From a virus (Duplodnaviria > Heunggongvirae > Uroviricota > Caudoviricetes), in the IMG/VR virus record IMGVR_UViG_3300014890_000016, positions 1-35,973 of that record: DNA of 35,973 nucleotides. One strand, given 5' to 3'. The notes below the pieces were generated by a model. It had not been told where the DNA came from. It ran no database searches and worked only from the letters and a program-made list of their open reading frames with translations. Position numbers and translations under genes: made by a program. This document shows, in pieces, positions 1 through 10,701 of this stretch. Each line of letters starts with the position of its first letter. Position 1 is the first letter of the stretch.

Positions 1-1005
1 TTAATCCCCCGTGGACACTGCGTGGACACTTACGCCACCTTTCAGCGGATTAAGGGCCACCGCATCCTGCAGGTAATCCGGTGCAAAATGTGCATACGCC
101 ATTGTTTGCTGAATGGTTGCGTGGCCAAGAATCTTCTGAAGCGCAATAATGTTTCCTCCGTTCATCACAAAATGGCTGGCGAACGTATGCCGCAGCACAT
201 GTGCAGCCTGACCTTTTGGCAAATCGGGCTTAACTCTTTTCAGCGCCAGGCAGAATTCCCGGTACTTCACCTCAAACAAGCTGCCTGTTTCTCTGGTTCT
301 GATCGCCTCACAAACCGCCTGCGAAATTGGCACCGTTCTCTTCCGGCCATTTTTGGTTTCAAGAAACGTCACTCGGTTATGAACTATCTGTTCACCACGG
401 AGCTTACAGGCTTCACTCCAGCGTGCCCCAGTGCTTAAACACAAAAGAGCAACACGCCAGTAATCGCCCTCCAATGTATCGAGCAATAACGCAACTTCCT
501 TCTGTGACAGGAACGCCATTTCTCGTGGAGATACATAAAGAATAGAAATTCCCCTTACCGGATGTTCTGCATCCCAAAGACCTATTTTTTTCAGCACGGT
601 AAACATTCCGGATAACCGATTCATGTACCTGTTAGCAGATGACGGTTTCAATCCATCAGCTATCTTTTGAGAACGCCACGCGATAATTTTCAGCTTATCA
701 AGATCCACAGCCTGCATATCAGCGCCAAGCTCATTGATTATGTTGCGCAGTTGTTTTCGGTCTTCTTCCGCCTTACGTCTGTGCTGGCCGTGATACATCC
801 ACCACAACTCAAGCAAATCATTTAGCGTTCGACGATCACGGTAGCCCTGTATATATTCCCGCTTTTCAGCGTTCGCCATGATGTAGCGTTCAGTGGCCAC
901 CGCTACCGATTTTTTGTCAAATACCTTACGCACGCGCTTTCCCTTGCGTCCGTTCGGCCTGATGTCCAGCAAATAACGACCATCTTCGAGCTTCTTAATC
1001 GACAT
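1..1005 (-). CDS. int: Tyrosine integrase, P2 Int-like
   Basis: Translation from the ATG at 1005 starts MSIKKLEDGRY (P2 Int starts MAIKKLDDGRY) and ends LNPLKGG..VHAVSTGD; GGAGGG Shine-Dalgarno upstream of that ATG. The track start at 1020 is a TTG upstream. Confidence 0.9.
   Translation of the reverse strand: MSIKKLEDGRYLLDIRPNGRKGKRVRKVFDKKSVAVATERYIMANAEKREYIQGYRDRRTLNDLLELWWMYHGQHRRKAEEDRKQLRNIINELGADMQAVDLDKLKIIAWRSQKIADGLKPSSANRYMNRLSGMFTVLKKIGLWDAEHPVRGISILYVSPREMAFLSQKEVALLLDTLEGDYWRVALLCLSTGARWSEACKLRGEQIVHNRVTFLETKNGRKRTVPISQAVCEAIRTRETGSLFEVKYREFCLALKRVKPDLPKGQAAHVLRHTFASHFVMNGGNIIALQKILGHATIQQTMAYAHFAPDYLQDAVALNPLKGGVSVHAVSTGD
8..35. repeat. Putative attL core, overlapping the 3' end of int
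   Basis: GTGGACACTGCGTGGACACTTACGC here resembles GTGGTCACTGTGTGGACATACGC at 34793..34815; the P2-type att core lies at the int 3' end (established). Confidence 0.4.
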
Positions 1006-1101
1006 AGCGAAGCCCTCCAATGAACCGCTTTACAATTTCTCCAGCTTCTTCCCAGCAACAGTCGGACCAGACAAATAACAGATCCAACCAGTTTTCTGGC
1101 C

Positions 1102-1416
1102 TCAGCGGAGTAATTTTTGGTTTGTTTCGGTTGAATCCTGATCGCCCTCCAAATTGCAGGAGCCATCATGAGAGAGAGGCGGGGCAATTTGTCCCGCAGC
1201 TTCGCCAGTTTGTCCGGTCATTAACCACAAAGTGTATTTATGAAACACAGGAATACGAATCACTCTCTCAACCAGCTCTGCTCTAGCAGGCTGATGCCCC
1301 GTTTCGTATTTCTGAATAGTGTTCAGTGGAATCCCTGTAATATCAGAGAACTGACGCCTGTTCAGCCCCTCAGCCTCCCTCATCCTCTGAAGCTTTTTTG
1401 AATAATCCATTGACAT
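1102..1416 (-). CDS. C: Immunity repressor, P2 C-like
   Basis: About 104 aa with HTH region LNRRQFSDITGIPLNTIQKYETG and the motif FHKYTLWLMTGQ...GQIAP matching P2 C (FTKYTLWFMTNQ...GQIAP). Start ambiguous between ATGs at 1410, 1416 and 1425; the 154-aa track ORF is an over-extension. Confidence 0.8.
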   Translation of the reverse strand: MSMDYSKKLQRMREAEGLNRRQFSDITGIPLNTIQKYETGHQPARAELVERVIRIPVFHKYTLWLMTGQTGEAAGQIAPPLSHDGSCNLEGDQDSTETNQKLLR

Positions 1417-1425
1417 GTTTCTCAT

Positions 1426-1537
1426 GTGAGAAATATACTCCTTTCTAAGTTGAGAAATGTTAAAACACATCGAATAGCCAAAATAAGCCCATATAAGCCA
1501 TTTTGAGCAATTCGAGCGAATTAAGGAGATTACCACA
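1426..1537. promoter_or_regulatory. C-cox divergent promoter/operator region with direct repeats
   Basis: Intergenic between divergent C and cox; direct repeats GTGAGAAAT and TTGAGAAAT about 26 bp apart, resembling the P2 arrangement of C operators as direct repeats. Confidence 0.45.
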
Positions 1538-1825
1538 ATGAGCGAATCAGAGCTTGAGGGGTTCATTCAGGTAGCACCATATCCACTTGAAGCGGTGCCA
1601 TATCAGCTATTCGCCAAGATGATTGGCCGCAAAGAATCAACCGTCAGAACCATGATTGACGCTGCAAAGCTACCAACGATTGACTTTGTAAAACCAGGTT
1701 CAGCAAAGACGCGAGCATCAGAAAACTGGGTATATCTGCCAGCATTTAACGCAGGTATGCGCAAAGCGTTTTTTGATCAGCCGAAAGAGCGCCGCGACGC
1801 ATGGTTGCTCTGGCTGGGTCTTTGA
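1538..1825 (+). CDS. cox: Cox-like excisionase / directionality factor
   Basis: 95 aa; PYQLFAKMIG..TVRTMID..KLPTIDF...ENWVYLPAFN...LLWLGL parallels P2 Cox (IPYQEFAKLIG...GEYWVYLPAWN...WLMWLGL); AAGGAG Shine-Dalgarno. Confidence 0.85.
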   Translation: MSESELEGFIQVAPYPLEAVPYQLFAKMIGRKESTVRTMIDAAKLPTIDFVKPGSAKTRASENWVYLPAFNAGMRKAFFDQPKERRDAWLLWLGL

Positions 1826-1846
1826 CGAGGATTTTTATGAGACAAC

Positions 1847-2178
1847 AACGTAATTCACGCTTCCGCAACGGCGCAGAACGCCACGCTAACCGTTTCGCTA
1901 CCAGTGCATCACGCAGCAGCTCTCGCTACAGCCTGAGCGAAACGCACGCAACACCAGACGGACACGCTGTAAAACAAACCGGCGAGCACACCTGGCTGAT
2001 TGAGAAAGCCGGAATCGTGGTCCACAAATGCCCGCGCAATCCGTTTACCGGAAACCGCATTTTTGCACTAAGCAGCGGCGACAATCAGTTCGGACAGGAT
2101 TTCACATTGTACGAAGCACTACGCACGGTTGATCGTCTGCTTCGCGGGCAAGGTTTTATTAAACAGGCTGACTTATAA
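1847..2178 (+). CDS. Hypothetical early protein with basic N-terminus
   Basis: ORF with GAGGA Shine-Dalgarno 7 nt upstream of ATG; in early operon after cox; no family recognised. Confidence 0.5.
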
Positions 2179-2188
2179 CAGGTGCTTT

Positions 2189-2476
2189 ATGACCAAAGAC
2201 TATGCACAAGGTGTATTTATCCGCTTTATTGATTTTCGCGGTGAACTGTTATTACGCGCATCCGCTATTGATGGAGTGGCTCCGGCGGGGAGAAACGGAA
2301 CCGCTGAAGCCACTTACGTTTATCTGAACGGCACTCGACTGCTTGTGGAACTTCCGTACCAGACCGTACGAGAAATCATTAGCGAAGCTGAAAAGGCACG
2401 TCAGGTTAATGGCGATAACCCCTATATCGAAATTATTTGTATGGATTCAGAAGCAGAAATCCAGAAGACAGATTAA
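2189..2476 (+). CDS. Hypothetical early protein
   Basis: 95-aa ORF in the co-directional early operon; no family recognised. Confidence 0.5.
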   Translation: MTKDYAQGVFIRFIDFRGELLLRASAIDGVAPAGRNGTAEATYVYLNGTRLLVELPYQTVREIISEAEKARQVNGDNPYIEIICMDSEAEIQKTD

Positions 2477-2486
2477 AGGGTGTGCG

Positions 2487-2729
2487 ATGGACAAAGAATA
2501 TAAAGCTCTCGTCAATAAAGCACTTGAGCGTTTTCATTTTCGCTTAAACACATCAGGGCTTCACGCCGAACACGCAGCCCATGATTCATTAGCAAGGGCA
2601 ATCAGAAGCCTTTATGACGTGGCTTTTTACGCTGACGATTTGGATGCAATTAACGAACTTTCCGAACTCGTCTGCGCTGCAGAATGCGGAGAACGCATTG
2701 AACCGTATAAACTGGGGAATATCGCATGA
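2487..2729 (+). CDS. Hypothetical early protein
   Basis: 80-aa ORF in the early operon; internal ATG chosen over the longer track ORF that overlaps the previous gene. Confidence 0.45.
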   Translation: MDKEYKALVNKALERFHFRLNTSGLHAEHAAHDSLARAIRSLYDVAFYADDLDAINELSELVCAAECGERIEPYKLGNIA

Positions 2730-2839
2730 GCATATTTATGTCATGGCTTGTTCTGATTATTTCGGTGGCCTGCGCAATCGGGATTATGCGAATTATTCAT
2801 TCAGTGAAAAAGATTGAGAATTTTTACTCTGACGAATAA
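2726..2839 (+). CDS. Small hydrophobic peptide (37 aa), putative membrane protein
   Basis: ATGA start/stop overlap with the upstream ORF; translation MSIFMSWLVLIISVACAIGIMRIIHSVKKIENFYSDE has one predicted TM helix. Below the ORF-track size cutoff. Confidence 0.3.
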   Translation: MSIFMSWLVLIISVACAIGIMRIIHSVKKIENFYSDE

Positions 2840-2932
2840 CAGCACAAATAAAACACCAGATTAAATAAGAAAACGTGAAAACCATCCGAATTAGCGGAGG
2901 CATTCACACACGTAAATAATGGAGATACAAAA

Positions 2933-3343
2933 ATGAACGCAAAAGAAAAAGGCATTGTAACTGCGCTAAAAAATATATCGAAGACCGCAAACAGAGCCAT
3001 TCAGGATGCAACAAATGCAGGAATGATTGGGCCTGCCACCACAGCCATGATGATAGCAAGAGTAACCGCCGAAGCAGCCGAAATTATCGAAAAACAGGAT
3101 GCTGAACTAACGGTTCTCAGAACACAACCAGTCACCGGACTGGATTTGTCTAACACCGGACGCCTTATTTACACAATTGGCTCGGAGCCACAGCAATACA
3201 CCATTATCGCCGGATTACAGGATAAATACCTGATCACTCCTCACCCCATAAGGGAATCAGAAATTCTGACAAATCTCCGCCTGATAGAGCGCTCTCAAGT
3301 CGCATTCATTGATGACGCACAGCGCACCGTATTTAACGCATAG
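2933..3343 (+). CDS. Hypothetical early protein
   Basis: 136-aa ORF with GGAG Shine-Dalgarno; no family recognised. Confidence 0.55.
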   Translation: MNAKEKGIVTALKNISKTANRAIQDATNAGMIGPATTAMMIARVTAEAAEIIEKQDAELTVLRTQPVTGLDLSNTGRLIYTIGSEPQQYTIIAGLQDKYLITPHPIRESEILTNLRLIERSQVAFIDDAQRTVFNA

Positions 3344-3367
3344 GGTTACTGGACAAAAGGGGGCGCA

Positions 3368-3571
3368 ATGGCAATTAAGCGTTTTTCCGTCATTCGTTTC
3401 ACATCCAGAGGGCGTGAATACGAAGTTGACGAACGGCTGATTAAAACGCTCGACCGTCACCGTTCGCAACCTGACGCGCATCACATTTATCTCACTGACG
3501 ACACTTACTTCTGCGCCACCAACGTGGTGCAGGTGAACCTTATCCGACAGGTACAGGAGTCACGCAGATGA
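3368..3571 (+). CDS. Hypothetical early protein
   Basis: 67-aa ORF with G-rich Shine-Dalgarno; stop overlaps next start. Confidence 0.5.
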   Translation: MAIKRFSVIRFTSRGREYEVDERLIKTLDRHRSQPDAHHIYLTDDTYFCATNVVQVNLIRQVQESRR

Positions 3572-3813
3572 CCATTCTGGACTACATCGCCGCCAATCCG
3601 GGTTGTAGCGGTGGAGAAATCGCCGCCGCGCTGAATACCCCAACCACAGCCATTAATGCGGAGTTACGCCGACTCTGGCGCGACGGCTTAGTCATCAGAG
3701 AAGAACGCAAAACAGGCGGTCGGTTCTCTTACCAGGTAAACCCGATGCCGTTCGGGTGTGGCAACCCACTTACTCACATGTTTAACCAGCTACTGAAGGA
3801 AGCCAGAGCATGA
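3568..3813 (+). CDS. Hypothetical protein, possible winged-helix DNA-binding
   Basis: ATGA coupling to flanking ORFs; segment SGGEIAAALNTPTTAINAELRRLWRDGLV resembles a wHTH recognition region (inference). Confidence 0.5.
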   Translation: MTILDYIAANPGCSGGEIAAALNTPTTAINAELRRLWRDGLVIREERKTGGRFSYQVNPMPFGCGNPLTHMFNQLLKEARA

Positions 3814-4109
3814 GCACCATCAACCACCAGGAACTACGCGAACTGGCGACAGACCTGCAACGAATGGCAACGCATCAAAAATTACTGGCGTTTCGCGCAA
3901 TGCTCTCGTCGTCTGCTGTGCTGGCACTGCTGGATGAGCTGGAGCACGCCAGAACCATGGTTCCAGCCATTCGCCTGACGCTCCATCATGAAATCGCTGA
4001 TTTCTGTGCACCACTGGGTTCACCTGGCGAACCGGAAACACCGGAAGCAATGCAGCGAGAGCTGCTGCAACGCATCGACAAGGTTTTTGATTTTTTCCTT
4101 AACCAGTAA
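3810..4109 (+). CDS. Hypothetical early protein
   Basis: 99-aa ORF translationally coupled (ATGA) to the upstream gene. Confidence 0.5.
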   Translation: MSTINHQELRELATDLQRMATHQKLLAFRAMLSSSAVLALLDELEHARTMVPAIRLTLHHEIADFCAPLGSPGEPETPEAMQRELLQRIDKVFDFFLNQ

Positions 4110-4120
4110 GGGACCAGAGC

Positions 4121-4267
4121 ATGCACAAAGCCTTTGAACGATGGATGCATCAGCGTTACGGCAACCACTACGACCTGACAAGAGATACCGATGGCTACTA
4201 CTGCCGCGAAATTGTGAAACGAATGTTTGAAGTGTGGTGCCACCACCGCGGTTTATACGCCGTGTAA
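4121..4267 (+). CDS. Small hypothetical protein (48 aa)
   Basis: Short ORF filling the gap between neighbouring early genes; weak ribosome-binding site. Confidence 0.25.
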   Translation: MHKAFERWMHQRYGNHYDLTRDTDGYYCREIVKRMFEVWCHHRGLYAV

Positions 4268-4294
4268 AGCACCACCGCTAACGAGGTAAAAAAT

Positions 4295-4855
4295 ATGCAT
4301 AACTTCAAACTCAAACCAATAGGTACACCTGGCGTGGCTCCGGCACATGTAAAGCCATGGACACAACAGGAAGATGAAATGCTTATCTCGCTTTATCCGG
4401 AGTGCAACACACGCCAGATAACCGAACAAATTCAACGAACCCATGACGCAGTTATGCACCGACTTAGTTTTTTACGTGATCGTGGATTGATTGGTCGCAA
4501 GAAAAAGACTCTGAGTGCAAAGGAGATCACCTTTCTCATCGAAAACCGCCGCACCAGAACGGCACGGGAACTGGCCGCCGAGGTGGGATGCACCATTCGC
4601 ACCGTACAAGTGCACCTGAAAAAACGTGGTTACAGCCTGCGAAAATGCGGAGGACTCCACCACCTGACCAGATACAGCGATCACCTGGTGGAACTGGTGA
4701 CTGAACTACATGATGAGCAGCACATGACGTTCGCCATGATAGCAAAACACATTAGTCACACACTGCAAATAAAAGTCACCACTCGCACAGCACGTTTTCT
4801 TTACGGTCGCCGCACCGCCGCCGACGCCGTGCTGTACGAGCTATTACCAAACTGA
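4295..4855 (+). CDS. Hypothetical protein with possible HTH segments
   Basis: 186-aa ORF with GAGGT Shine-Dalgarno; followed by an intrinsic terminator. Confidence 0.55.
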   Translation: MHNFKLKPIGTPGVAPAHVKPWTQQEDEMLISLYPECNTRQITEQIQRTHDAVMHRLSFLRDRGLIGRKKKTLSAKEITFLIENRRTRTARELAAEVGCTIRTVQVHLKKRGYSLRKCGGLHHLTRYSDHLVELVTELHDEQHMTFAMIAKHISHTLQIKVTTRTARFLYGRRTAADAVLYELLPN

Positions 4856-4975
4856 GTAATCATCATGCACACACAAAAAAACCGCTTGCCATGCCGCAAT
4901 CAGTCAGGTTACATTTCCGCTGCATCTCATAAAACGGGTGCCGGGATTGGAACCCCGCAGACTAACAGAGCGCAC

Positions 4976-4997
4976 AACCGCGCCAGCGGTTTTTTTG
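4976..4997 (+). terminator. Rho-independent terminator inside the early region
   Basis: AACCGC-gcca-GCGGTT hairpin followed by a run of seven T. Confidence 0.5.
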
Positions 4998-5175
4998 TGC
5001 GTACCGTATCGCCACGTCTTTTTCGCACACGAATTATGGTGGGGCGTACAGGGCCAGCATCAGCTGGGCCGGGTCCTCTGTTAGCCGGTAGTTCCAACCC
5101 TGTGCGTCTCACCACCCTGAGCTTGGAACCTCTGGATGGTGAGTTTTCAAAACTGACTAACAGAGAGGCCACACC

Positions 5176-5406
5176 ATGGCAAACCGCAAACAGCACCGCG
5201 CTATCGCGGAGCGTCGTCACATCCAGACTGAAATCAACCGTAGACTTTTCCGCGCATCACGCGTCGCGCAAATCATGCACATCAATATGCTGCATGAGCG
5301 CAGTCATGCGCTATCAAACACTTATTCCGCCTCTGTTTTTAGCTATCTGGCGGATGATTTGTACGAGCTTCAGCAGCTCATCCAGCAGCAAAACAAACTC
5401 CATTAA
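5176..5406 (+). CDS. Hypothetical protein
   Basis: 76-aa ORF with GAGAGG Shine-Dalgarno 7 nt upstream; sits after a structured non-coding stretch. Confidence 0.4.
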   Translation: MANRKQHRAIAERRHIQTEINRRLFRASRVAQIMHINMLHERSHALSNTYSASVFSYLADDLYELQQLIQQQNKLH

Positions 5407-5478
5407 TTCCTGTTCCGGGCCTTTCCTGCACCTTGCGGCGGGAGGCCTTCGCACATCTGTAACAAGAGGATTGCCGCA

Positions 5479-5844
5479 ATGATTCTCGCCAACGACTTTC
5501 TTGAATACCTGCTCAACACAGAGCGTGATCTTGCCGTTCGCGTGCGTGAACGTTATGACATGCACCTGAAATCCCTGCCTGTACCGCAGCTCGCTGACGG
5601 AAAGATTGTTATTGATGGTCGCTACATGATTGACAGCCACGAGGGAAATTACAGGCTTTACCGCATTGAAGGTGGCACCCCGTACGTTATTGGCATTTAC
5701 CAGCGCCCATCCTCCGCAATCGTCGATGTGATTGCCGACAGCATCCGCATCACACATCGCCATGCCGACACAGAAGACACCGTGCTGGAAATTCAGCGGC
5801 TGGCTACAGTCTGCCGCGACACCCTGAATGGCATGACGAAGTAA
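5479..5844 (+). CDS. Hypothetical protein
   Basis: 121-aa ORF with AGAGGA Shine-Dalgarno, immediately upstream of gpA. Confidence 0.5.
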   Translation: MILANDFLEYLLNTERDLAVRVRERYDMHLKSLPVPQLADGKIVIDGRYMIDSHEGNYRLYRIEGGTPYVIGIYQRPSSAIVDVIADSIRITHRHADTEDTVLEIQRLATVCRDTLNGMTK

Positions 5845-5850
5845 ATCACT

Positions 5851-8673
5851 ATGACGGCAGAGTACATCAGGGACTGGCAACAACCGCGCCACGCAGTGGG
5901 GCGTGAAGGAACGGGGATCCCCGCTCCTGAATCCGCGCTTTCCTCCTGGCTGGGTGCCTACCGGGTAGAGAACGAGCGCCGCCAGGAAATGGCTGATGCG
6001 GCGTTCTCCGCCACGCCGCTGGGCAACCTGATTAATAAAAGCCTGGACGCACAGGAAAAACAGGACAAAACCATCACACTGGCAGGAGACGCCAGAAAAC
6101 AGGCACGCGGCGCGGTGGGTGAAGCCATGGTCTCGCTGCGCCTGCTGCCGTCCTATCTGCGCGATCCGCTTATTCGCCACCTCTCCTTCCTGCGCAAAAA
6201 ACAGGAAGCTGATCGCCGGAAAGGCAAAAAGAGCTGGCAGGCGGAACGCTATGCACGCGGAACCCTGCGCAAAATATTCGAACGTCTGGATCGCACTGAC
6301 GGACGCTGGCTGACACCGGGTTATCGCTCCCTTGCCGGACGCGAACGCCTGGACGATTTGCTTTACCTGCCGCAGCTCAACAAACACCAGATACAGACGC
6401 TGGCCACCATGACGGCGGCGATGTTCAGCAGCACCTTCGAAAAACTCTGCGATGGCTTTGGCGCGACCGATGGCGAACTGACCATGGATGTAACGCTGAA
6501 GGCGTATCAGATGCTGGCCCGCATGGCGTTACACCTGCACATCATGCCTCCACATTATGACGCACTGACAACAGATAAAGACCGGAGGAACGAACCGGAC
6601 ACGGAGCTGCTGCCGGGCGCAATCCTTCGCCTGACCTGTGCGGAATGGTGGAAACGCAAACTGTGGCTGTTACGTTGCGAGTGGAGAGAAGAACAACTCC
6701 GCGCCGCCTGTCTGGTTTCCAGAAAAACATCACCCTATCTGAGCCAGGACGCGTTAAGCGAGTTTCGCGCACAGCGCGAGAAAACACGCGATTTCCTGAA
6801 AAGTTTCATACTGGAAAATGAAGACGGGTTCACGATTGATCTCGAGACGGTGTATTACGCGGGAGTAAGTAACCCGGTTCACCGTAAGGCAGAAATGATG
6901 GCCACCATGAAGGGGCTGGAACTTCTGGCCGAAGCCCGTGGCGACAAAGCGGTGTTTCTTACTGTCACCTGCCCGTCAAAATACCACGCCACAACGGAGA
7001 ACGGTCATCCGAATCCCAAATGGAACGGGGCCACAATGCGCGACTCCAGCGATTACCTGGTTAACACGTTTTTTGCGGCGGTCCGCAAAAAACTGAACCG
7101 CGACGGCCTGCGCTGGTATGGCATCCGCACGGTGGAGCCTCATCATGACGGCACCGTGCACTGGCATATGATGGTCTTTGCACATCCGGAAGAAATCGAC
7201 AGCATCGTGGCCATCACCCGCGATATTGCCATTCAGGAAGACCGCCACGAGCTGGGCAATGATATTACTCCGCGCTTTAAGGCGGAGTATGTCGACGGCT
7301 CAAAAGGCACACCAACCAGCTATATCGCGACCTACATCGGAAAGAACCTGGACAGCCGCGCCGTGGATGGCATCGACCCGAAAACGGGCAAGCCACGCGT
7401 TGACCACGAAACCGGAAAATCAATGGCCGAGAGTGTGGAGCGCGCCATCGGCTGGGCGCGCCTTCACCGGGTCCGCCAGTTCCAGTTCTTTGGCATCCCC
7501 TCCCGTCAGGTGTGGCGTGAACTGCGCCGCCTTGCCAGCCAGATGGCACGCAACCCGGAAGGCCCGCAACGACTGAAGGATGACGCAATGGATGCAGTGC
7601 TCGCTGCCGCTGATGCCGGGTGTTTTGCCTCCTACATTGAAAAACAGGGCGGCGTACTTGTTCCACGCAAAGACTACCTGATTCGCACCGCCTACGACCT
7701 CGCAGATGAGCTGAACGATTACGGCGAACAGAGCGTACAGATTTACGGGATCTGGTCACCACTCATCGGGGAGTCTTCCCGTGTGTGCACACATCCGGAT
7801 AACTGGAAGCTGGTAAGACGTAAACCGGAAGCGGAAGACAGCGCCCGCGAAAATGGTTTTGACCTTCAGGGCGGCCCTGCCGCCCCTTGGACTCGTGGCA
7901 ATAACTGTCCCCGTGTACAGGAAACGGACAACAACGGGACAGAACAGCCGGAAGAACGGCCAGCACCGTGGCCGCAGCTCCCTGACGGCGTTGAAGTGAA
8001 CGAATGGATGCGCTCACTGAAACGGCACGAACGCCGGGCGCTGATGCGTTCGCTTCGTGACAAACAGGCAAAAAACAGCAGTGATGAAATGCAGAGCTGG
8101 ACACAGAGCCGCAAACAACAGCGGCCTTTGCCTGATAACCACGAGTTACTCGCTAAAGAATGGCGGGAGTCTGCTGAATCTCTCGGCCTGCATATCGGTG
8201 AACAGCAGATACTGCACCTGTTACGGGGCGGCAGTCTGTACGTTGACGGCAGCATCATTGCACCGCAGGGATTTGAAATTGTGCGCAAACCGGATACCCG
8301 CCCGGACAGCCGAATCGCGCAGCTCTGGCAGCGCCTGAGCCGTAATCACGGCGTAAGCAGCACGGAGATCCGTCATAACCCGGTCGCCAGCTATCTGGCA
8401 CAGCTGGGGGCATCAGACCCCGAAGCCGCCGCACGCCTGGCATCCACACTTCAGCAGGACCAGAACCCTATGAAAACACCCGTTACCGTGCTTTCTGACA
8501 TGCTGCGCGCCATCCGTGACGCAGAGCACGCACAGAGAATCAGTGAAACCACTGAACGCGCTCGCCGCAAAGCAGACCTGCTGCGGGGTGGCCTGACCAG
8601 TGGAAACAAAAAACAGACAGAAACGGGATTCACAAATCCCGTAAATGAGCAAAAAACGCGCCGCGATATATGA
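5851..8673 (+). CDS. A: Replication initiation endonuclease, P2 gpA-like (rolling-circle HUH nickase)
   Basis: 940 aa; HUH motif region TVHWHMMVF and tyrosine motif YIATYIGKN typical of the P2 A family; about 180 aa longer at the C-terminus than P2 A. Confidence 0.9.
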   Translation: MTAEYIRDWQQPRHAVGREGTGIPAPESALSSWLGAYRVENERRQEMADAAFSATPLGNLINKSLDAQEKQDKTITLAGDARKQARGAVGEAMVSLRLLPSYLRDPLIRHLSFLRKKQEADRRKGKKSWQAERYARGTLRKIFERLDRTDGRWLTPGYRSLAGRERLDDLLYLPQLNKHQIQTLATMTAAMFSSTFEKLCDGFGATDGELTMDVTLKAYQMLARMALHLHIMPPHYDALTTDKDRRNEPDTELLPGAILRLTCAEWWKRKLWLLRCEWREEQLRAACLVSRKTSPYLSQDALSEFRAQREKTRDFLKSFILENEDGFTIDLETVYYAGVSNPVHRKAEMMATMKGLELLAEARGDKAVFLTVTCPSKYHATTENGHPNPKWNGATMRDSSDYLVNTFFAAVRKKLNRDGLRWYGIRTVEPHHDGTVHWHMMVFAHPEEIDSIVAITRDIAIQEDRHELGNDITPRFKAEYVDGSKGTPTSYIATYIGKNLDSRAVDGIDPKTGKPRVDHETGKSMAESVERAIGWARLHRVRQFQFFGIPSRQVWRELRRLASQMARNPEGPQRLKDDAMDAVLAAADAGCFASYIEKQGGVLVPRKDYLIRTAYDLADELNDYGEQSVQIYGIWSPLIGESSRVCTHPDNWKLVRRKPEAEDSARENGFDLQGGPAAPWTRGNNCPRVQETDNNGTEQPEERPAPWPQLPDGVEVNEWMRSLKRHERRALMRSLRDKQAKNSSDEMQSWTQSRKQQRPLPDNHELLAKEWRESAESLGLHIGEQQILHLLRGGSLYVDGSIIAPQGFEIVRKPDTRPDSRIAQLWQRLSRNHGVSSTEIRHNPVASYLAQLGASDPEAAARLASTLQQDQNPMKTPVTVLSDMLRAIRDAEHAQRISETTERARRKADLLRGGLTSGNKKQTETGFTNPVNEQKTRRDI

Positions 8674-8715
8674 AGCGCGCATAAAACAGGCAAAAACGGG
8701 ATTTCAGAATCCCGT
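8623..8715. repeat. Two copies of a 20-bp palindrome ACGGGATT-N4-AATCCCGT
   Basis: Copy 1 at 8623..8642 lies inside the last codons of gpA; copy 2 at 8696..8715 is just upstream of the parM-like gene. Confidence 0.4.
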
Positions 8716-8749
8716 AAACGATTAATTAATCAACATAAGGAAAAGCGAC

Positions 8750-9709
8750 ATGAAAATTTGTATCGACGACGGCTCCACCAACATCAAGCTGGCATGGACT
8801 AAGAACGGCGAACGCCGCAACGCCATCAGCCCGAACAGCTTCAAGTCGGAATGGTCTGCGCCGTTCGGTGGCACGCAGCCCGCGAACTACATGCTTGATG
8901 GCGTGCGCTATGGTTTTGATCCGGTCAGCGATCGCTTTGTCCAGACGACCGACACGCAATACCAGTACAGCGATGTGAATGTCATTGCCATTCATCACGC
9001 GCTGGTCAAATCAGGCATCACGCCACAGGAGGTGGATGTGGTTGTCACCCTGCCACTGAGCGAGTATTTCGACACAAACGCACAGCCGGACATGGCCAAC
9101 ATCAACCGCAAAAAAGCGAACGTTATGCGCCCGGTGGAGTACCAGAACGGCGAAGCATTCACTATCCGTAACGTACGGGTTATGCCTGAATCCATTCCGG
9201 CTGGCTTTAAGGCACTGGCTGACATGAGTCCGTTTGAATCCCTGCTGATTGTGGATTTGGGCGGAACCACGCTGGATGTGGCAAAGGTTCAGGGGCAACT
9301 GGCAGGTATCAGCCAGGTGTTTTGCGATCCACACGTAGGCGTTTCCCTGATGGCCGATGCAGTACTCTCGGTGATGGCCGCTAACGGTATGCGTACCAGT
9401 CACCACATCGCCAATACCATTATCGAACATCGCCATGATGAAGCCTGGCTGCGCCAGCACATCCACAATGACACGCATTACGCCAGCCTGATGGCGGTTA
9501 TTCGTGAAAAGGAAGAAACACTGAAACAACGCGTGATCCGCGCGCTGGCGGTTTTTTCGGGTTACGGGCGGGTGATGGTTGTCGGTGGAGGGGCGGAGAT
9601 TGTAGCACCCGCTATCCGCGAAGCCTGCGGAGTTAATGCGACTTTCATCGCGGACGGGGTGCCACAGTTTGCTCTGGTTAATGGGCTGTACGCAATGGAC
9701 AAGGAGTAA
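8750..9709 (+). CDS. parM: Actin-like ATPase of the ParM/StbA family
   Basis: 319 aa; MKICIDDGSTNIKLAW, ISPNSFKSEW, QYSDVNVIAIHHAL, VMPESIPAG, IVDLGGTTLD, SGYGRVMVVGGGAE and LVNGLY align along the whole length with plasmid R1 ParM as recalled. Confidence 0.85.
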   Translation: MKICIDDGSTNIKLAWTKNGERRNAISPNSFKSEWSAPFGGTQPANYMLDGVRYGFDPVSDRFVQTTDTQYQYSDVNVIAIHHALVKSGITPQEVDVVVTLPLSEYFDTNAQPDMANINRKKANVMRPVEYQNGEAFTIRNVRVMPESIPAGFKALADMSPFESLLIVDLGGTTLDVAKVQGQLAGISQVFCDPHVGVSLMADAVLSVMAANGMRTSHHIANTIIEHRHDEAWLRQHIHNDTHYASLMAVIREKEETLKQRVIRALAVFSGYGRVMVVGGGAEIVAPAIREACGVNATFIADGVPQFALVNGLYAMDKE

Positions 9710-9713
9710 ACCA

Positions 9714-10028
9714 ATGACGACACCAACCAGACGGATAAGTTTCTATCTGAAGCCTGCGGCCGTCAAGAGTGAACAGGAGGCGTGCAATTACCTCGACAGC
9801 CTGCCAGCCTCCGAACGCAGCCGCGCGCAACGCGCGGCTTTTCTGGCCGGACTGGCTCTTATAAAACGCACCCCCGCGTTGGCGTATTCGCTGGCAGAAT
9901 GGTCAGAAGACGAAATACGGATGCCATCGCTACCAGCACAGCCTGAAAAACCGGCGCAACCAGCAGCAGACAGCGCCCCCCATATGCAGCAGGTGAAAAA
10001 GAATATTCAGGCGTTTTTCCCGAAGTGA
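9714..10028 (+). CDS. parR: ParR-like DNA-binding adaptor
   Basis: 104 aa directly after parM with AAGGAG Shine-Dalgarno; N-terminus RRISFYLKP...LDSLPASERSRAQRAAFLAGLAL parallels R1 ParR (RRTIAFKLNP...LDSIPQGERSRLNRAALTAGLAL). Confidence 0.7.
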   Translation: MTTPTRRISFYLKPAAVKSEQEACNYLDSLPASERSRAQRAAFLAGLALIKRTPALAYSLAEWSEDEIRMPSLPAQPEKPAQPAADSAPHMQQVKKNIQAFFPK

Positions 10029-10042
10029 AAACAGGAGTAACT

Positions 10043-10330
10043 ATGCCCACCATTACCAAAGAATGGTTACAACGTAAAATCACAGAGTTTAAATCGTGGC
10101 GCGAAGACATCCCGTTCGGTCTTGATGAAGACGATCACAATATGTTAATCGCACTGGAAATCGCACTTGCATCACTGGAAGCAGAGCCAGTGGCATGGAT
10201 GCACGCAAATAATCCTATTGGAATACCGGCGATAACAAGAAGTAAAGATGTTGCAGACAGCTGGCGCTCTAAGGGATGGAATGTATTGCCTCTTTATTCA
10301 CTGACCCGCTCCATCAATTTATGCCATTAA
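10043..10330 (+). CDS. Hypothetical protein
   Basis: 95-aa ORF with CAGGAG Shine-Dalgarno; no family recognised. Confidence 0.5.
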   Translation: MPTITKEWLQRKITEFKSWREDIPFGLDEDDHNMLIALEIALASLEAEPVAWMHANNPIGIPAITRSKDVADSWRSKGWNVLPLYSLTRSINLCH

Positions 10331-10341
10331 TGGAAGTAATC

Positions 10342-10701
10342 ATGATGAAAGATAATTCCGGAAGCCAGCGTGCATCAGTTGCAGTTATGGTAATGATTAA
10401 ATTTGTGAAACAGTACACCGGAAAGCCAATCTCACTCCGGCAATTAAGCAAAGAAACCGTTTCACTGTCATATCTGGAGCAAATATTCAGATATTTACGG
10501 GAAAGTAGCTTGGTAAAAGCCACACGCGGCCCGGGTGGTGGATATATCCCAACAAAAGAAAATTACAGTGTTGGTGATATTGTCCGGGCAATGAAATGTT
10601 CCGGATTATATACACAGCACGTTATTCTGGCTGCACTGGATAATATTTCTTTAACCAGCCTGCAAGAAGACACAAATTATCAGTTGTCTGCCATTGAATA
10701 A
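10342..10701 (+). CDS. Rrf2-family winged-helix transcriptional regulator, short form
   Basis: ISLRQLSKETVSLSYLEQIFRYLRESSLVKATRGPGGGY matches the Rrf2/IscR signature; no Cys cluster, so probably not Fe-S binding. Start could also be the ATG at 10330. Confidence 0.65.
   Translation: MMKDNSGSQRASVAVMVMIKFVKQYTGKPISLRQLSKETVSLSYLEQIFRYLRESSLVKATRGPGGGYIPTKENYSVGDIVRAMKCSGLYTQHVILAALDNISLTSLQEDTNYQLSAIE

What the first reader, a model, noticed from the sequence alone, without database searches (positions are those of the whole stretch)
1847..5844. Long early operon of small, mostly unassignable proteins
At least twelve short co-directional ORFs lie between cox and gpA, several with overlapping stop/start codons, none recognisable as P2 B, and one a 37-aa single-helix membrane peptide at 2726..2839. 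Early-operon small proteins in temperate phages are a frequent source of host-takeover and anti-defence factors.
Basis: inference. Interest (0 to 1): 0.35.

Follow-up and report, generated by a model that had tools for sequence, protein, structure and literature searches.

The report
RNA-gated antirepressor inside phage early operon

Summary
Twelve small co-directional ORFs lie between cox (1538-1825) and gpA (5851-8673), and all show coding-type substitution patterns in about 80 related loci. The 37-aa membrane peptide is real, and there is no P2 B homologue. The window is a P88-like (Xuanwuvirus) P2-type prophage, and most of the ORFs belong to phage families of unknown function.

The informative part is 4865-5482, which is not a simple ORF. 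It holds a promoter-like site (4886-4915), an isrK/seqA-type RNA with terminator (4922-4996, 70 bits) and a C4/CI-type antisense RNA (5032-5119, 77 bits). Two short loop sequences of C4 are complementary to sites inside isrK and to sites beside the ribosome-binding site of a homologue of the P4 epsilon anti-repressor (5176-5406). Across 37 distinct relatives these three sets co-vary perfectly (17 haplotypes, 98-100% paired) and are 4-5 times more diverse than synonymous sites. That pattern marks an immunity-specificity code.

A 205-codon Ash/Eta-like ORF starts upstream of the internal promoter and ends on the start codon of the next gene, as P4 eta does.

The kind is known (P4 seqA-CI-seqC/eta/epsilon, P1 immI). 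The setting in a helper-type phage, present in 16-24% of complete E. coli genomes, is apparently undescribed. The anti-defence reading is untested.

The parts
1410..1458 (+). Early promoter Pe (TTGACA-18-TATACT, 1410-1439) with two 17-nt operator-like palindromes (1418-1434 and 1442-1458, 24 bp apart)
   Evidence: Promoter scan 11/12; repeats; lies between the divergent C (about 1102-1407, minus strand) and cox, as in P2
1837..2178 (+). ORF 113 aa, DUF4761; core early gene
   Evidence: Pfam 229 bits; dN/dS 0.13; AF2 domain 30-108 with pLDDT 80-89, no fold match
2189..2476 (+). ORF 95 aa, phrog_3800, unknown function; core
   Evidence: PHROG E 2e-58; dN/dS 0.27
2487..2729 (+). ORF 80 aa, DUF4754; core
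   Evidence: Pfam 160 bits; dN/dS 0.17
2726..2839 (+). 37-aa single-pass membrane peptide, ATGA-coupled to DUF4754
   Evidence: Intact in all 83 loci that carry it, hydrophobic core conserved, KD maximum 2.54; dN/dS 0.32; no family hit
2933..3343 (+). ORF 136 aa, phrog_9338; cargo of variable slot 1 (2840-3367), which is reduced to an 86-bp junction in 29 relatives
3368..3571 (+). ORF 67 aa, phrog_3459; core
   Evidence: dN/dS 0.27
3568..3813 (+). ORF 81 aa, MarR-type winged-helix DNA-binding protein; core
   Evidence: Pfam MarR_2 34.6 bits and HTH_24; dN/dS 0.16
3810..4109 (+). ORF 99 aa, weak Ead/Ea22-like N-terminus, phrog_4144; core
   Evidence: dN/dS 0.29
4121..4855 (+). Cargo of variable slot 2: ORF 48 aa (4121-4267, phrog_3871) and ORF 186 aa HTH/Myb-like protein (4295-4855, phrog_323). 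The slot is a 26-bp junction in 59 of 82 relatives
4865..5482 (+). 205-codon Ash/Eta-like ORF. Its ATG lies upstream of the internal promoter. It runs through isrK, C4 and, in another frame, the epsilon-like gene. Its stop overlaps the ATG of the next gene (ATGA)
   Evidence: Phage_ASH 25.7 bits, cutoff 26; P4 Eta is Phage_ASH at 82 bits; open ATG to 5480 in 56 of 59 distinct relatives; ATG kept in every junction type; no codon-position bias; PGAP sometimes calls it 'ash family protein'
4886..4915 (+). Internal sigma-70-like promoter (TTGCCA-18-TACATT); its -10 ends 6 nt before the isrK 5' end
   Evidence: 9/12, not above chance on its own; both hexamers invariant in 52 distinct sequences
4922..4996 (+). 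isrK / P4 seqA-type RNA with intrinsic terminator (4976-4996); carries target a1 (4947-4953, hairpin loop) and target b1 (4962-4970, linker)
   Evidence: Rfam RF01394 70.2 bits, cutoff 50; terminator; fold
5032..5119 (+). C4 / P4 CI-type antisense RNA; recognition elements b' (5076-5084, loop of hairpin 2) and a' (5091-5097, junction)
   Evidence: Rfam RF01695 77.2 bits, cutoff 45; MFE -47 kcal/mol, z -5.15; helices 100% paired with compensatory changes
5123..5165 (+). Downstream targets a2 (5123-5129) and b2 (5157-5165); b2 overlaps the first 3 nt of the Shine-Dalgarno-like GAGAGG (5163-5168) of the epsilon-like gene
5176..5406 (+). ORF 76 aa, homologue of the P4 epsilon helper-derepression (anti-repressor) protein
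   Evidence: Pfam PF25738 30.0 bits, cutoff 27; 32% identity over 50 aa to P4 epsilon, E 6e-8; P4 epsilon scores 170 bits on the same model; dN/dS 0.16
5479..5844 (+). ORF 121 aa, phrog_3237, unknown function; ATGA-coupled to the Ash/Eta-like ORF and 6 nt upstream of gpA
   Evidence: AF2 model unusable, pLDDT 54
5851..8673 (+). gpA replication endonuclease (940 aa), the last gene of the operon
   Evidence: Pfam Phage_GPA 438 bits; P2 A E 8e-86 and 186 A E 2.5e-95

Best explanation
Region 1837-5844 is the Pe-driven early operon of a P88-like (Xuanwuvirus) P2-type prophage. It combines nine lineage-restricted core genes, two cargo slots and, just before the replication genes, a P4/P1-type RNA immunity cassette.

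Proposed mechanism:
- In a lysogen the C repressor shuts Pe.
- An internal promoter (4886-4915) inside the 5' end of a 205-codon Ash/Eta-like ORF makes an untranslated transcript starting at about 4922.
- Most of that transcript ends at the isrK terminator. Read-through yields the C4/CI-like RNA.
- The b' loop and a' junction of C4 pair with a1/b1 (in isrK) and with a2/b2. The b2 site abuts the ribosome-binding site of the epsilon-like gene.
- This pairing would block translation of the anti-repressor homologue and, by polarity, expression of orf121 and gpA.
- When Pe fires, ribosomes coming from upstream start at ATG 4865 and translate through the RNA elements. This would prevent terminator and antisense action and deliver ribosomes onto orf121 and gpA through ATGA coupling, as shown for P4 eta.
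- If made, the epsilon-like protein would inactivate P2-type C repressors and lock in or trigger lytic growth.
- The hypervariable, co-varying a/b sequences would set immunity specificity, independently of the C/operator type.

Shown here: the RNA family matches, the folds, the three-way complementarity and covariation, the geometry at the ribosome-binding site, the homologies and the conservation of the ORF architecture.

Inferred: promoter activity, RNA processing, the translational block, polarity on gpA, anti-termination by translation, and the target of the epsilon-like protein.
For: - Rfam hits above gathering score: isrK 70.2 bits and C4 77.2 bits, adjacent and on the same strand. The same pair is found in P4, where they are seqA and CI (PMC3632133, PMC10111431).
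- C4 folds at -47 kcal/mol, z -5.15.
- The 9-mer CTAACAGAG occurs only three times in 36 kb, all in this cassette: b1, b2 and, as its complement, b'. Expected by chance 0.1. The 7-mer TTGGAAC does the same for a1, a2 and a'.
- In 37 distinct relatives, a1-a' and b1-b' are 100% paired with 11 of 16 pairs changed on both sides. a'-a2 and b'-b2 are 98.1% paired with 10 of 16 changed. Slid controls give 55% or less.
- There are 17 haplotypes built from at least 5 a alleles and at least 10 b alleles. The rare imperfect cells are G-U wobbles, as expected for RNA pairing.
- Diversity in the a/b blocks is 0.29-0.38, against 0.074 at epsilon third positions.
- b2 overlaps the Shine-Dalgarno-like GAGAGG, 7 nt before ATG 5176.
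- The promoter hexamers are invariant, and the -10 ends 6 nt before the isrK 5' end.
- The epsilon-like ORF passes the Pfam cutoff for the P4 epsilon family and is under purifying selection.
- ORF205 is open in 56 of 59 relatives. Its ATG is kept 18-21 nt upstream of the -35 whatever lies upstream, and its stop overlaps the next gene's ATG, even where a different downstream allele is present.
- P4 Eta belongs to the same Pfam family, and its translation from an upstream promoter prevents termination (PMC10111431, section 20).
Against: - There is no expression data.
- The promoter match is only 9/12, and such matches are not enriched in the region.
- Selection for an open ORF205 is not statistically demonstrable. 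Given the epsilon protein, the frame is open by chance in 6% of recodings. Stop-creating variants are only mildly depleted. ORF205 falls 0.3 bits short of the Pfam cutoff and has no BLASTP similarity to P4 Eta.
- The epsilon-like protein is short (76 aa against 95) and only 32% identical to P4 epsilon.
- One epsilon type (at least 85% identity) is combined with at least 12 C repressor types that are less than 70% identical to each other. Either it recognises a conserved part of C or C is not its target.
- Polarity on gpA is inferred only from gene order.
Confidence: 0.65

Rival explanations
1. The small proteins are mainly host-takeover or anti-defence factors, and the RNA cassette is a side feature.
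For: Two slots carry interchangeable cargo: o136 or alternatives, and o48 plus an HTH protein or an SPFH-like lipoprotein with a membrane protein. The core proteins are lineage-restricted orphans without known folds. A conserved 37-aa membrane peptide is present.
Against: No hit to any defence-related model. No homology to known inhibitors. The search gave no positive evidence of any kind. Several of the ORFs are DNA-binding or regulatory proteins.
Confidence: 0.25
2. The cassette is a decaying remnant: an 'ash family' pseudogene left by recombination with a lambdoid phage or a P4-like element, without function in this phage.
For: PGAP labels the region 'similar to ash family protein' as a non-coding feature in one record. 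ORF205 lacks codon-position bias. The RNA region is 70-74% identical to cassettes in Stx and other lambdoid phages.
Against: Perfect three-way compensatory covariation across 17 haplotypes, with 4-5 times elevated diversity confined to the pairing blocks. Invariant promoter hexamers and terminator. Purifying selection on the epsilon-like gene. Presence in 874-1318 of 5426 complete E. coli genomes.
Confidence: 0.03
3. The RNAs act chiefly in trans on other elements or on the host. The C4-like RNA would silence P4-like satellites or competing phages that share its a/b code. Alternatively the IsrK-like RNA would be an Hfq-dependent regulator of host genes, as proposed for Gifsy-1 IsrK. Regulation of the phage's own genes would be secondary.
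For: Diversifying selection on the code suggests conflict between elements. A defensive role of IsrK-C4 systems in prophages has been suggested (PMC3632133). IsrK of Gifsy-1 acts in trans (PMC4825925). In the one informative genome holding two such prophages, the codes differ.
Against: The window's code occurs only inside the cassette within this 36-kb window. All 11 IMG/VR contigs with the same b'/a' code are P88-like phages, not satellites. The cis targets are always present and always matched.
Confidence: 0.15
4. ORF205 is a genuine Ash-family regulatory protein, and the Rfam matches merely reflect its conserved coding sequence.
For: Long ORF, open in 56 of 59 relatives. Phage_ASH and PHROG 'transcriptional regulator' hits (E 1.4e-18 for phrog_995) over residues 12-119. 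Annotated as a CDS in some RefSeq genomes.
Against: Substitutions show no third-position excess: 62/97/104 at codon positions 1/2/3, dN/dS 0.62. The variable blocks change the encoded peptide freely but always keep RNA complementarity. The C-terminal half overlaps, in another frame, a gene that does show purifying selection. The covariance-model scores are far above threshold.
Confidence: 0.07

Closest known systems
Satellite phage P4 immunity and derepression region (PLE - seqA - CI RNA - seqC, eta/kil, epsilon, then the alpha replication gene)
   Same: Same two Rfam families in the same order and on the same strand. Recognition loops with matched targets upstream and downstream. A long Phage_ASH ORF that begins upstream of the internal promoter and ends on the start of the next gene. 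An epsilon-family gene follows, and the replication gene lies at the end of the operon.
   Different: The host element is a complete P2-type (helper-type) phage with C, Cox and gpA, not a satellite. The upstream promoter is the C-repressed Pe, not the delta-activated PLL. The epsilon-like gene sits 57 nt after C4, inside the Ash-like ORF in another frame, in the position of P4 kil. In P4, epsilon lies about 245 nt after CI. The epsilon-like protein is 76 aa rather than 95. The downstream gene is orf121 and then a rolling-circle endonuclease, not orf151/cnr and a primase-helicase.
Phage P1/P7 immI (a1 b1 - c4 RNA - a2 b2 - icd - ant)
   Same: C4-family RNA with a' and b' elements, duplicated targets, the downstream target at a ribosome-binding site, and an anti-repressor as the controlled function. 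Allelic a/b differences give heteroimmunity (Citron and Schuster 1990, as cited in PMC7313666; otherwise from my own knowledge).
   Different: No icd-like leader gene. The anti-repressor is epsilon-type, not Ant. The cassette lies inside the early replication operon, not in a separate immunity operon.
Gifsy-1 isrK-orf45-anrP locus of Salmonella (PMC4825925)
   Same: IsrK-family RNA with its own promoter and a leaky intrinsic terminator. A downstream processed RNA is present (STnc1160). An anti-repressor gene is translated only when RNA pairing permits.
   Different: A lambdoid context, a different anti-repressor family and an orf45 leader. In Gifsy-1, IsrK acts as an activator in trans, and whether it does so here is unknown.
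Early operons of P2 (cox-orf78-B-orf80-83-A) and 186 (apl-cII-fil-dhr-...-A; Tum anti-repressor under LexA)
   Same: A divergent C/Pe-cox switch, a string of small early genes ending in gpA, and an ORF coupled to the start of A.
   Different: None of the twelve ORFs is homologous to the P2 or 186 early genes. P2 and 186 have no isrK/C4 in these regions. No LexA box was found outside gpA: the single CTGT-N8-ACAG match lies at 7905-7920 inside gpA and is no more than chance. No Tum homologue was found.

Membership tests
C4 antisense RNA (Rfam RF01695; P1 c4 / P4 CI class) | Match to the covariance model at or above the gathering score | tested here: met
   77.2 bits against 45, full-length model 1-87
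C4 antisense RNA (Rfam RF01695; P1 c4 / P4 CI class) | Long closing stem enclosing two hairpins, with the recognition elements exposed in the hairpin-2 loop and the 3' junction | tested here: met
   The MFE structure equals the Rfam consensus, z -5.15. The three C4 helices are 100% paired in 37 sequences, with compensatory changes in four pairs
C4 antisense RNA (Rfam RF01695; P1 c4 / P4 CI class) | Complementary target pairs both upstream (a1 b1 / seqA) and downstream (a2 b2 / seqC) on the same transcript | tested here: met
   7-nt and 9-nt perfect complements at 4947-4953/4962-4970 and 5123-5129/5157-5165. 98-100% paired, with 10-11 of 16 pairs co-varying
C4 antisense RNA (Rfam RF01695; P1 c4 / P4 CI class) | The downstream target occludes the ribosome-binding site of the first downstream gene | tested here: met
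   b2 ends at 5165 inside GAGAGG (5163-5168); the ATG is at 5176. The geometry is shown; the effect on translation was not tested
C4 antisense RNA (Rfam RF01695; P1 c4 / P4 CI class) | The RNA is processed from a longer transcript and causes a translational block or premature termination | not testable with these tools
   Needs Northern blots or RNA-seq and reporter fusions
isrK / P4 seqA RNA (Rfam RF01394) | Match at or above the gathering score, with its own promoter and a Rho-independent terminator | tested here: met
   70.2 bits against 50. The -10 ends 6 nt before model position 1. Stem plus U7 at 4976-4996. Promoter activity was not tested
isrK / P4 seqA RNA (Rfam RF01394) | Hfq binding and trans action | not testable with these tools
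   No experimental data available here
P4 epsilon derepression protein family (Pfam PF25738) | Profile score at or above the gathering cutoff | tested here: met
   30.0 bits against 27, residues 12-67 on profile positions 16-71 of 95. P4 epsilon itself scores 170 bits. Pairwise E 6e-8
P4 epsilon derepression protein family (Pfam PF25738) | Binds and inactivates a P2-type C repressor | not testable with these tools
   Indirect only. The window's C is a P2 C homologue, E 2e-22. One epsilon type accompanies at least 12 C types that share a C-terminal motif
P4 Eta / Ash family (Pfam PF10554) | Profile score at or above the gathering cutoff | tested here: not met
   25.7 bits against 26, E 1.7e-5, so 0.3 bits short. 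A relative's ORF scores 19.8 bits. No BLASTP similarity to P4 Eta
P4 Eta / Ash family (Pfam PF10554) | The ORF starts upstream of the internal constitutive promoter, spans the seqA and CI RNAs, and its end is coupled to the next gene | tested here: met
   ATG at 4865 against the -35 at 4886. Stop at 5480-5482 over the ATG at 5479. Kept in 56 of 59 relatives and in every junction type. P4 eta spans 8168-8812 and overlaps the epsilon start
P4 Eta / Ash family (Pfam PF10554) | Translation of the ORF prevents immunity-dependent termination | not testable with these tools
   Known for P4 (PMC10111431, section 20); needs nonsense mutants here
P2-type early operon (Peduoviridae) | Divergent C repressor and Cox, and gpA rolling-circle endonuclease at the operon end | tested here: met
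   C against P2 C E 2e-22, Cox E 2.5e-30, A E 8e-86. Closest records are Xuanwuvirus phages
P2-type early operon (Peduoviridae) | P2 B (helicase loader) or other P2/186 early gene homologues | tested here: not met
   No match better than E 0.02 in an all-against-all phmmer comparison
Known anti-phage defence systems (PADLOC) | A significant profile hit to a defence protein | tested here: not met
   Only weak HTH-type hits (E about 1e-3) for the 186-aa protein. No anti-defence library was available

The most novel reading that the evidence does not exclude
P88-like P2-type phages would run a two-key immunity system. The first key is a protein repressor with many operator specificities. The second is a P4/P1-type antisense RNA whose hypervariable two-part 'address code' gates a generic anti-C anti-repressor and the replication genes. 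On this reading, helper-type phages and their P4-like satellites share, and compete through, the same RNA-immunity and epsilon machinery. P4's derepression and immunity module would then be derived from, or exchanged with, its helper lineage. The code diversity would be the trace of an arms race over who may derepress whom.
Probability: 0.3. Interest if true: 0.6.

Novelty: new member of a known kind. Interest (0 to 1): 0.42.

Why it matters
P2 is the textbook non-inducible prophage, and P4 is the textbook satellite that derepresses it with epsilon. A survey of P4-like satellites states that delta is the only P4-specific gene with clear homologues in P2-like phages (PMC8628076). Here a common P2-type lineage, found in 16-24% of complete E. 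coli genomes including O157:H7, carries the whole P4-style set in front of its own replication gene: the seqA-like RNA, the CI-like RNA, an Eta-like ORF and an epsilon homologue.

If the cassette works as proposed, three things follow. It explains how these phages can be induced or can escape repression without a LexA-controlled Tum. It adds a second, RNA-encoded immunity specificity that reassorts independently of the repressor type. It also gives a direct handle on helper-satellite and phage-phage interference.

Practically, it shows that current annotations of this region are inconsistent. Records carry a minus-strand hypothetical CDS, or an 'ash family protein', or a 'derepression protein', and none examined here annotates the RNA genes.

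Tried and rejected
- PADLOC scan of ten ORFs: nothing significant.
- NCBIfam: nothing beyond weak HTH hits.
- PDB sequence searches for six ORFs: nothing meaningful.
- AF2 of orf121: pLDDT 54, unusable, so not searched.
- LexA box search: a single chance-level match inside gpA. SOS control as in 186 is therefore not indicated.
- orf121 against P4 orf151: no similarity.
- ORF205 against P4 Eta by BLASTP: no similarity. They are linked only through the Pfam profile.
- Test for selection keeping ORF205 open: not significant.
- My first 'intactness' count for ORF205 (17 of 29) was an artefact of alignment ends. The anchored analysis replaces it.
- Scan of one genome per species for epsilon-like genes: only 3 loci, so no deeper divergence was available.
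- Search for the window's RNA code in satellites: only P88-like phages were found.
- Co-resident prophage comparison: only one informative genome.
- The minus-strand ORF 5314-6387 was rejected as spurious. It has a first-position-biased substitution pattern and overlaps gpA.

Full report
**What the window is.** The region belongs to a P2-type temperate phage of the P88 group (genus Xuanwuvirus, Peduoviridae).
- A megablast of 1400-6000 finds Citrobacter phage Shae_phiSM (83% covered, 91.6% identity), Xuanwuvirus P884B11 and Escherichia phage P88 as the closest records.
- Their annotation shows the same layout: integrase, C repressor, Cox, a run of hypothetical proteins, then a replication endonuclease.
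- In the window, integrase is 1-1020 (minus strand) and C is about 1102-1407 (minus strand).
- Pe is a near-consensus promoter at 1410-1439. It is flanked by two 17-nt operator-like palindromes.
- cox is 1538-1825 and gpA is 5851-8673.
- C, Cox and A are clear homologues of the P2 proteins, with E 2e-22, 2.5e-30 and 8e-86.

**Check of the observation.**
- Twelve + strand ORFs fill the space between cox and gpA. Coordinates are in the parts list.
- Four junctions are ATGA overlaps.
- I collected 80 IMG/VR loci plus three phage records that carry the same operon and compared each ORF codon by codon.
- All twelve show an excess of third-position substitutions and dN/dS between 0.13 and 0.43.
- The 37-aa ORF at 2726-2839 is intact in every one of the 83 loci that carry it. 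It keeps a 20-residue hydrophobic core followed by R/K residues and is always joined to the preceding gene by ATGA.
- Eleven of the twelve fall in PHROG families, mostly of unknown function.
- Pfam recognises DUF4761, DUF4754, a MarR-type winged helix, a weak Ead/Ea22 N-terminus, HTH/Myb motifs in the 186-aa protein, and the 'Derepression' family.
- None resembles P2 orf78, B or orf80-83, or 186 cII, fil or dhr.

**Architecture of the operon.** Presence and absence across the loci shows nine core genes and two cargo slots.
- Slot 1 (2840-3367) is an 86-bp junction in 29 loci. Elsewhere it holds the 136-aa protein or alternatives.
- Slot 2 (4110-4880) is a 26-bp junction in 59 of 82 loci.
- In the window, slot 2 holds the 48-aa and 186-aa ORFs. 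In P88 and others it holds a 67-aa membrane protein plus a 276-aa SPFH-like lipoprotein, in various combinations.
- These slots are the most plausible place for accessory (moron-like) functions, but nothing in them matched a defence model.

A scan of the whole window against Rfam at gathering thresholds gives exactly two hits, adjacent and on the + strand.
- isrK lies at 4922-4996 (70.2 bits, cutoff 50).
- C4 antisense RNA lies at 5032-5119 (77.2 bits, cutoff 45).
- The same pair is found in satellite phage P4. The literature equates IsrK-like RNAs with P4 seqA and C4-like RNAs with the P4 immunity factor CI (PMC3632133; PMC10111431; PMC4825925).
- A sigma-70-like promoter (TTGCCA-18-TACATT, 4886-4915) ends 6 nt before the isrK 5' end.
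- A stem followed by seven U residues closes isrK at 4976-4996.
- C4 folds into the family's structure at -47 kcal/mol, z -5.15.
- P2 and 186 have no such RNAs in their early regions, whereas P88 and Shae_phiSM do.

**Recognition code.** The loop of C4 hairpin 2 (b', 5076-5084) and the junction after it (a', 5091-5097) are exactly complementary to two pairs of sites.
- a1 lies at 4947-4953, in the loop of the second isrK hairpin.
- b1 lies at 4962-4970, in the isrK linker.
- a2 lies at 5123-5129.
- b2 lies at 5157-5165.
- The 9-mer occurs three times in the 36-kb window, all in this cassette, against 0.1 expected. The 7-mer likewise occurs only at these three sites.
- b2 overlaps the first three bases of GAGAGG (5163-5168), the Shine-Dalgarno-like sequence 7 nt before ATG 5176.
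- This is the a1 b1 - c4 - a2 b2 design of P1/P7 immI and the seqA - CI - seqC design of P4.

**Covariation.** An alignment of 4860-5410 with 51 other distinct sequences shows that variation is concentrated in exactly these six blocks.
- There are 17 haplotypes, built from at least five a alleles and at least ten b alleles.
- In each haplotype a1 = a2 = complement of a', and b1 = b2 = complement of b'.
- On a 37-sequence alignment, the upstream interaction is 100% paired with 11 of 16 pairs changed on both sides. The downstream interaction is 98.1% paired with 10 of 16 changed.
- Partners slid by 1-3 columns reach at most 55% pairing.
- The few imperfect cells are G-U wobbles. That fits RNA pairing rather than DNA-level repeat homogenisation.
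- Nucleotide diversity is 0.29-0.38 in the blocks. It is 0.084 in the rest of the RNA region and 0.074 at third positions of the neighbouring gene.
- The internal helices of both RNAs are 96% paired.
- The promoter hexamers are invariant.
- This is strong comparative evidence that the RNA-RNA contacts are functional and under diversifying selection. That is the behaviour expected of an immunity-specificity determinant.

**The controlled gene.** The ORF at 5176-5406 (76 aa) passes the Pfam cutoff for the 'Derepression' family (30.0 bits against 27).
- P4 epsilon itself scores 170 bits on that model.
- The two proteins align at 32% identity over 50 residues, E 6e-8.
- The ORF is under purifying selection, dN/dS 0.16.
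- P4 epsilon inactivates the P2 C repressor (Liu et al. 1997, as cited in PMC8628076).
- The window's C is a P2 C homologue.
- However, one epsilon type (at least 85% identity) is found with at least twelve C types that are less than 70% identical to each other. These C types share only a C-terminal motif, KY..W...GQ(I/V).P.L.
- The same RNA code also occurs with C proteins only 29-53% identical to the window's.
- If C is the target, the protein must recognise the conserved part. Specificity of the system would then lie in the RNA code, not in the anti-repressor.

**The long overlapping ORF.** ORF 4865-5482 (205 codons) has a borderline Phage_ASH match over residues 16-105, which is exactly the isrK-C4 stretch (25.7 bits, cutoff 26).
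- P4's eta ORF (8168-8812, minus strand) is a solid Phage_ASH member at 82 bits.
- P4 eta starts upstream of the internal constitutive promoter, spans seqA and CI, and overlaps the start of the next gene.
- In P4, eta is translated only from the upstream late promoter, and its translation prevents immunity-dependent termination (PMC10111431, section 20).
- In the window and its relatives the ORF is open from an ATG at 4862/4865 to a stop at 5480 in 56 of 59 distinct sequences.
- The ATG is retained 18-21 nt upstream of the -35 hexamer in all junction types.
- The stop overlaps the ATG of the next gene, even in relatives with a different downstream gene.
- Against a protein-coding role: there is no codon-position bias and no BLASTP similarity to Eta.
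- Openness across the epsilon-like gene would arise by chance in about 6% of synonymous recodings.
- Depletion of stop-creating variants is not significant.
- I therefore treat the eta-like anti-termination role as a well-motivated inference, not a demonstrated fact.

**Model.**
- In lysogens C represses Pe.
- The internal promoter makes untranslated RNA that yields the IsrK-like and C4-like RNAs.
- C4 pairs with a2/b2 and blocks the epsilon-like ribosome-binding site. By leaving the RNA untranslated, this also blocks orf121 and gpA.
- a1/b1 in IsrK either help termination, as in P4, or titrate C4, as the Gifsy-1 data suggest.
- When Pe is active, translation entering ORF205 overrides the terminator and the antisense control, and feeds ribosomes into orf121 and gpA.
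- Release of the epsilon-like protein would inactivate C.
- No LexA box accompanies the cassette, so induction would not follow the 186 Tum route.

**Other small proteins.** Attempts to assign them failed.
- PADLOC gave nothing significant.
- PDB sequence searches gave nothing meaningful.
- The orf121 family is restricted to E. coli and gave an unusable model.
- The DUF4761 protein gave a confident small domain without structural relatives.
- Their roles remain open.

**Distribution and novelty.**
- The 4860-5850 segment is found in 1318 of 5426 complete E. coli genomes, and at 80% coverage or more in 874.
- Among species-representative genomes, epsilon-like genes of this type turned up only in Salmonella enterica, E. 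albertii and a probably contaminated 'Vagococcus' assembly.
- IsrK-C4 cassettes are well known in P4, P1/P7, N15, Gifsy-1 and Stx phages (PMC3632133).
- In the searchable literature I found no description of one in a P2-type phage. One survey states that delta is the only P4-specific gene with clear homologues in P2-like phages (PMC8628076).
- The finding is therefore a new member of a known kind, in an unexpected host element.
- Existing records annotate the region inconsistently.

Noticed in passing
window 8607-8721 and 8750-10028: Two 42-nt direct repeats (81% identical) straddle the gpA stop codon. Each holds a 20-nt palindrome, ACGGGATT..AATCCCGT. They lie just upstream of a ParM actin-like ATPase (8750-9709) and a ParR-like Plasmid_stab_B ORF (within 9636-10028). 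This looks like a parC-parMR partition cassette in an integrating P2-type phage. P88 has been listed among possible phage-plasmids (PMC7969092).
   Followed up: partly
window 10276-10701: An Rrf2-family winged-helix regulator (Pfam 50 bits) lies between the partition genes and the portal gene, at the position of the P2 old/tin accessory locus. A relative carries an AAA ATPase plus an S8 peptidase there (locus L101).
   Followed up: no
window 5851-8673: gpA is 940 aa, against 761 aa in P2 and 694 aa in 186. The Phage_GPA domain covers only residues 179-503, so a long C-terminal region is unexplained.
   Followed up: no
window 1410-1458: Pe (TTGACA-18-TATACT) carries a 17-nt palindrome, TTTCTCATGTGAGAAAT, between its hexamers. 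A second copy lies 24 bp downstream. These are likely C operators, arranged like O1/O2 of P2.
   Followed up: partly
L002 4463-4651 (P88 SF19_gp13); L003 3776-4036; L101 7002-7619; L102 7313-7543: Public annotations of the cassette disagree. The P88 RefSeq record has a minus-strand hypothetical CDS over C4/isrK. One record has a 'similar to ash family protein' feature. PGAP calls either the 205-aa 'ash family protein' or the 76-aa 'derepression protein', never both. None of these records annotates the RNAs.
   Followed up: yes
window 4121-4267: The 48-aa cargo ORF shares about 84% nucleotide identity with lambdoid phages phi467 and phiP27. It occurs as a separable module in slot 2 of relatives (L020, L055).
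   Followed up: partly
L002 3314-4344, L013, L055 and others (slot 2 of relatives): The alternative slot-2 cargo is a 67-aa two-helix membrane protein plus a 276-aa lipoprotein, annotated as SPFH-domain or serine protease in the P88 records. It is absent from the window. It could be a superinfection-exclusion or envelope module.
   Followed up: no
C genes of 52 related loci (for example L001 1140-1460, L002 600-881): There are at least 14 C repressor types that are less than 70% identical to each other. They share a C-terminal motif, KY..W...GQ(I/V).P.L(S/A), while the N-terminal HTH part varies. All accompany nearly the same epsilon-like protein.
   Followed up: partly
L099 (NZ_JBQPOM010000071.1, 'Vagococcus sp. 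WN89Y'): A Firmicute assembly contains a 226-kb contig with a P88-like early region that is 91% identical at the epsilon-like protein. This is probably enterobacterial contamination of the assembly.
   Followed up: no
L021 and L063 (same IMG genome 2537561977): Two P88-like prophages in one genome carry different a/b RNA codes. This is consistent with heteroimmunity, but it is a single case.
   Followed up: partly
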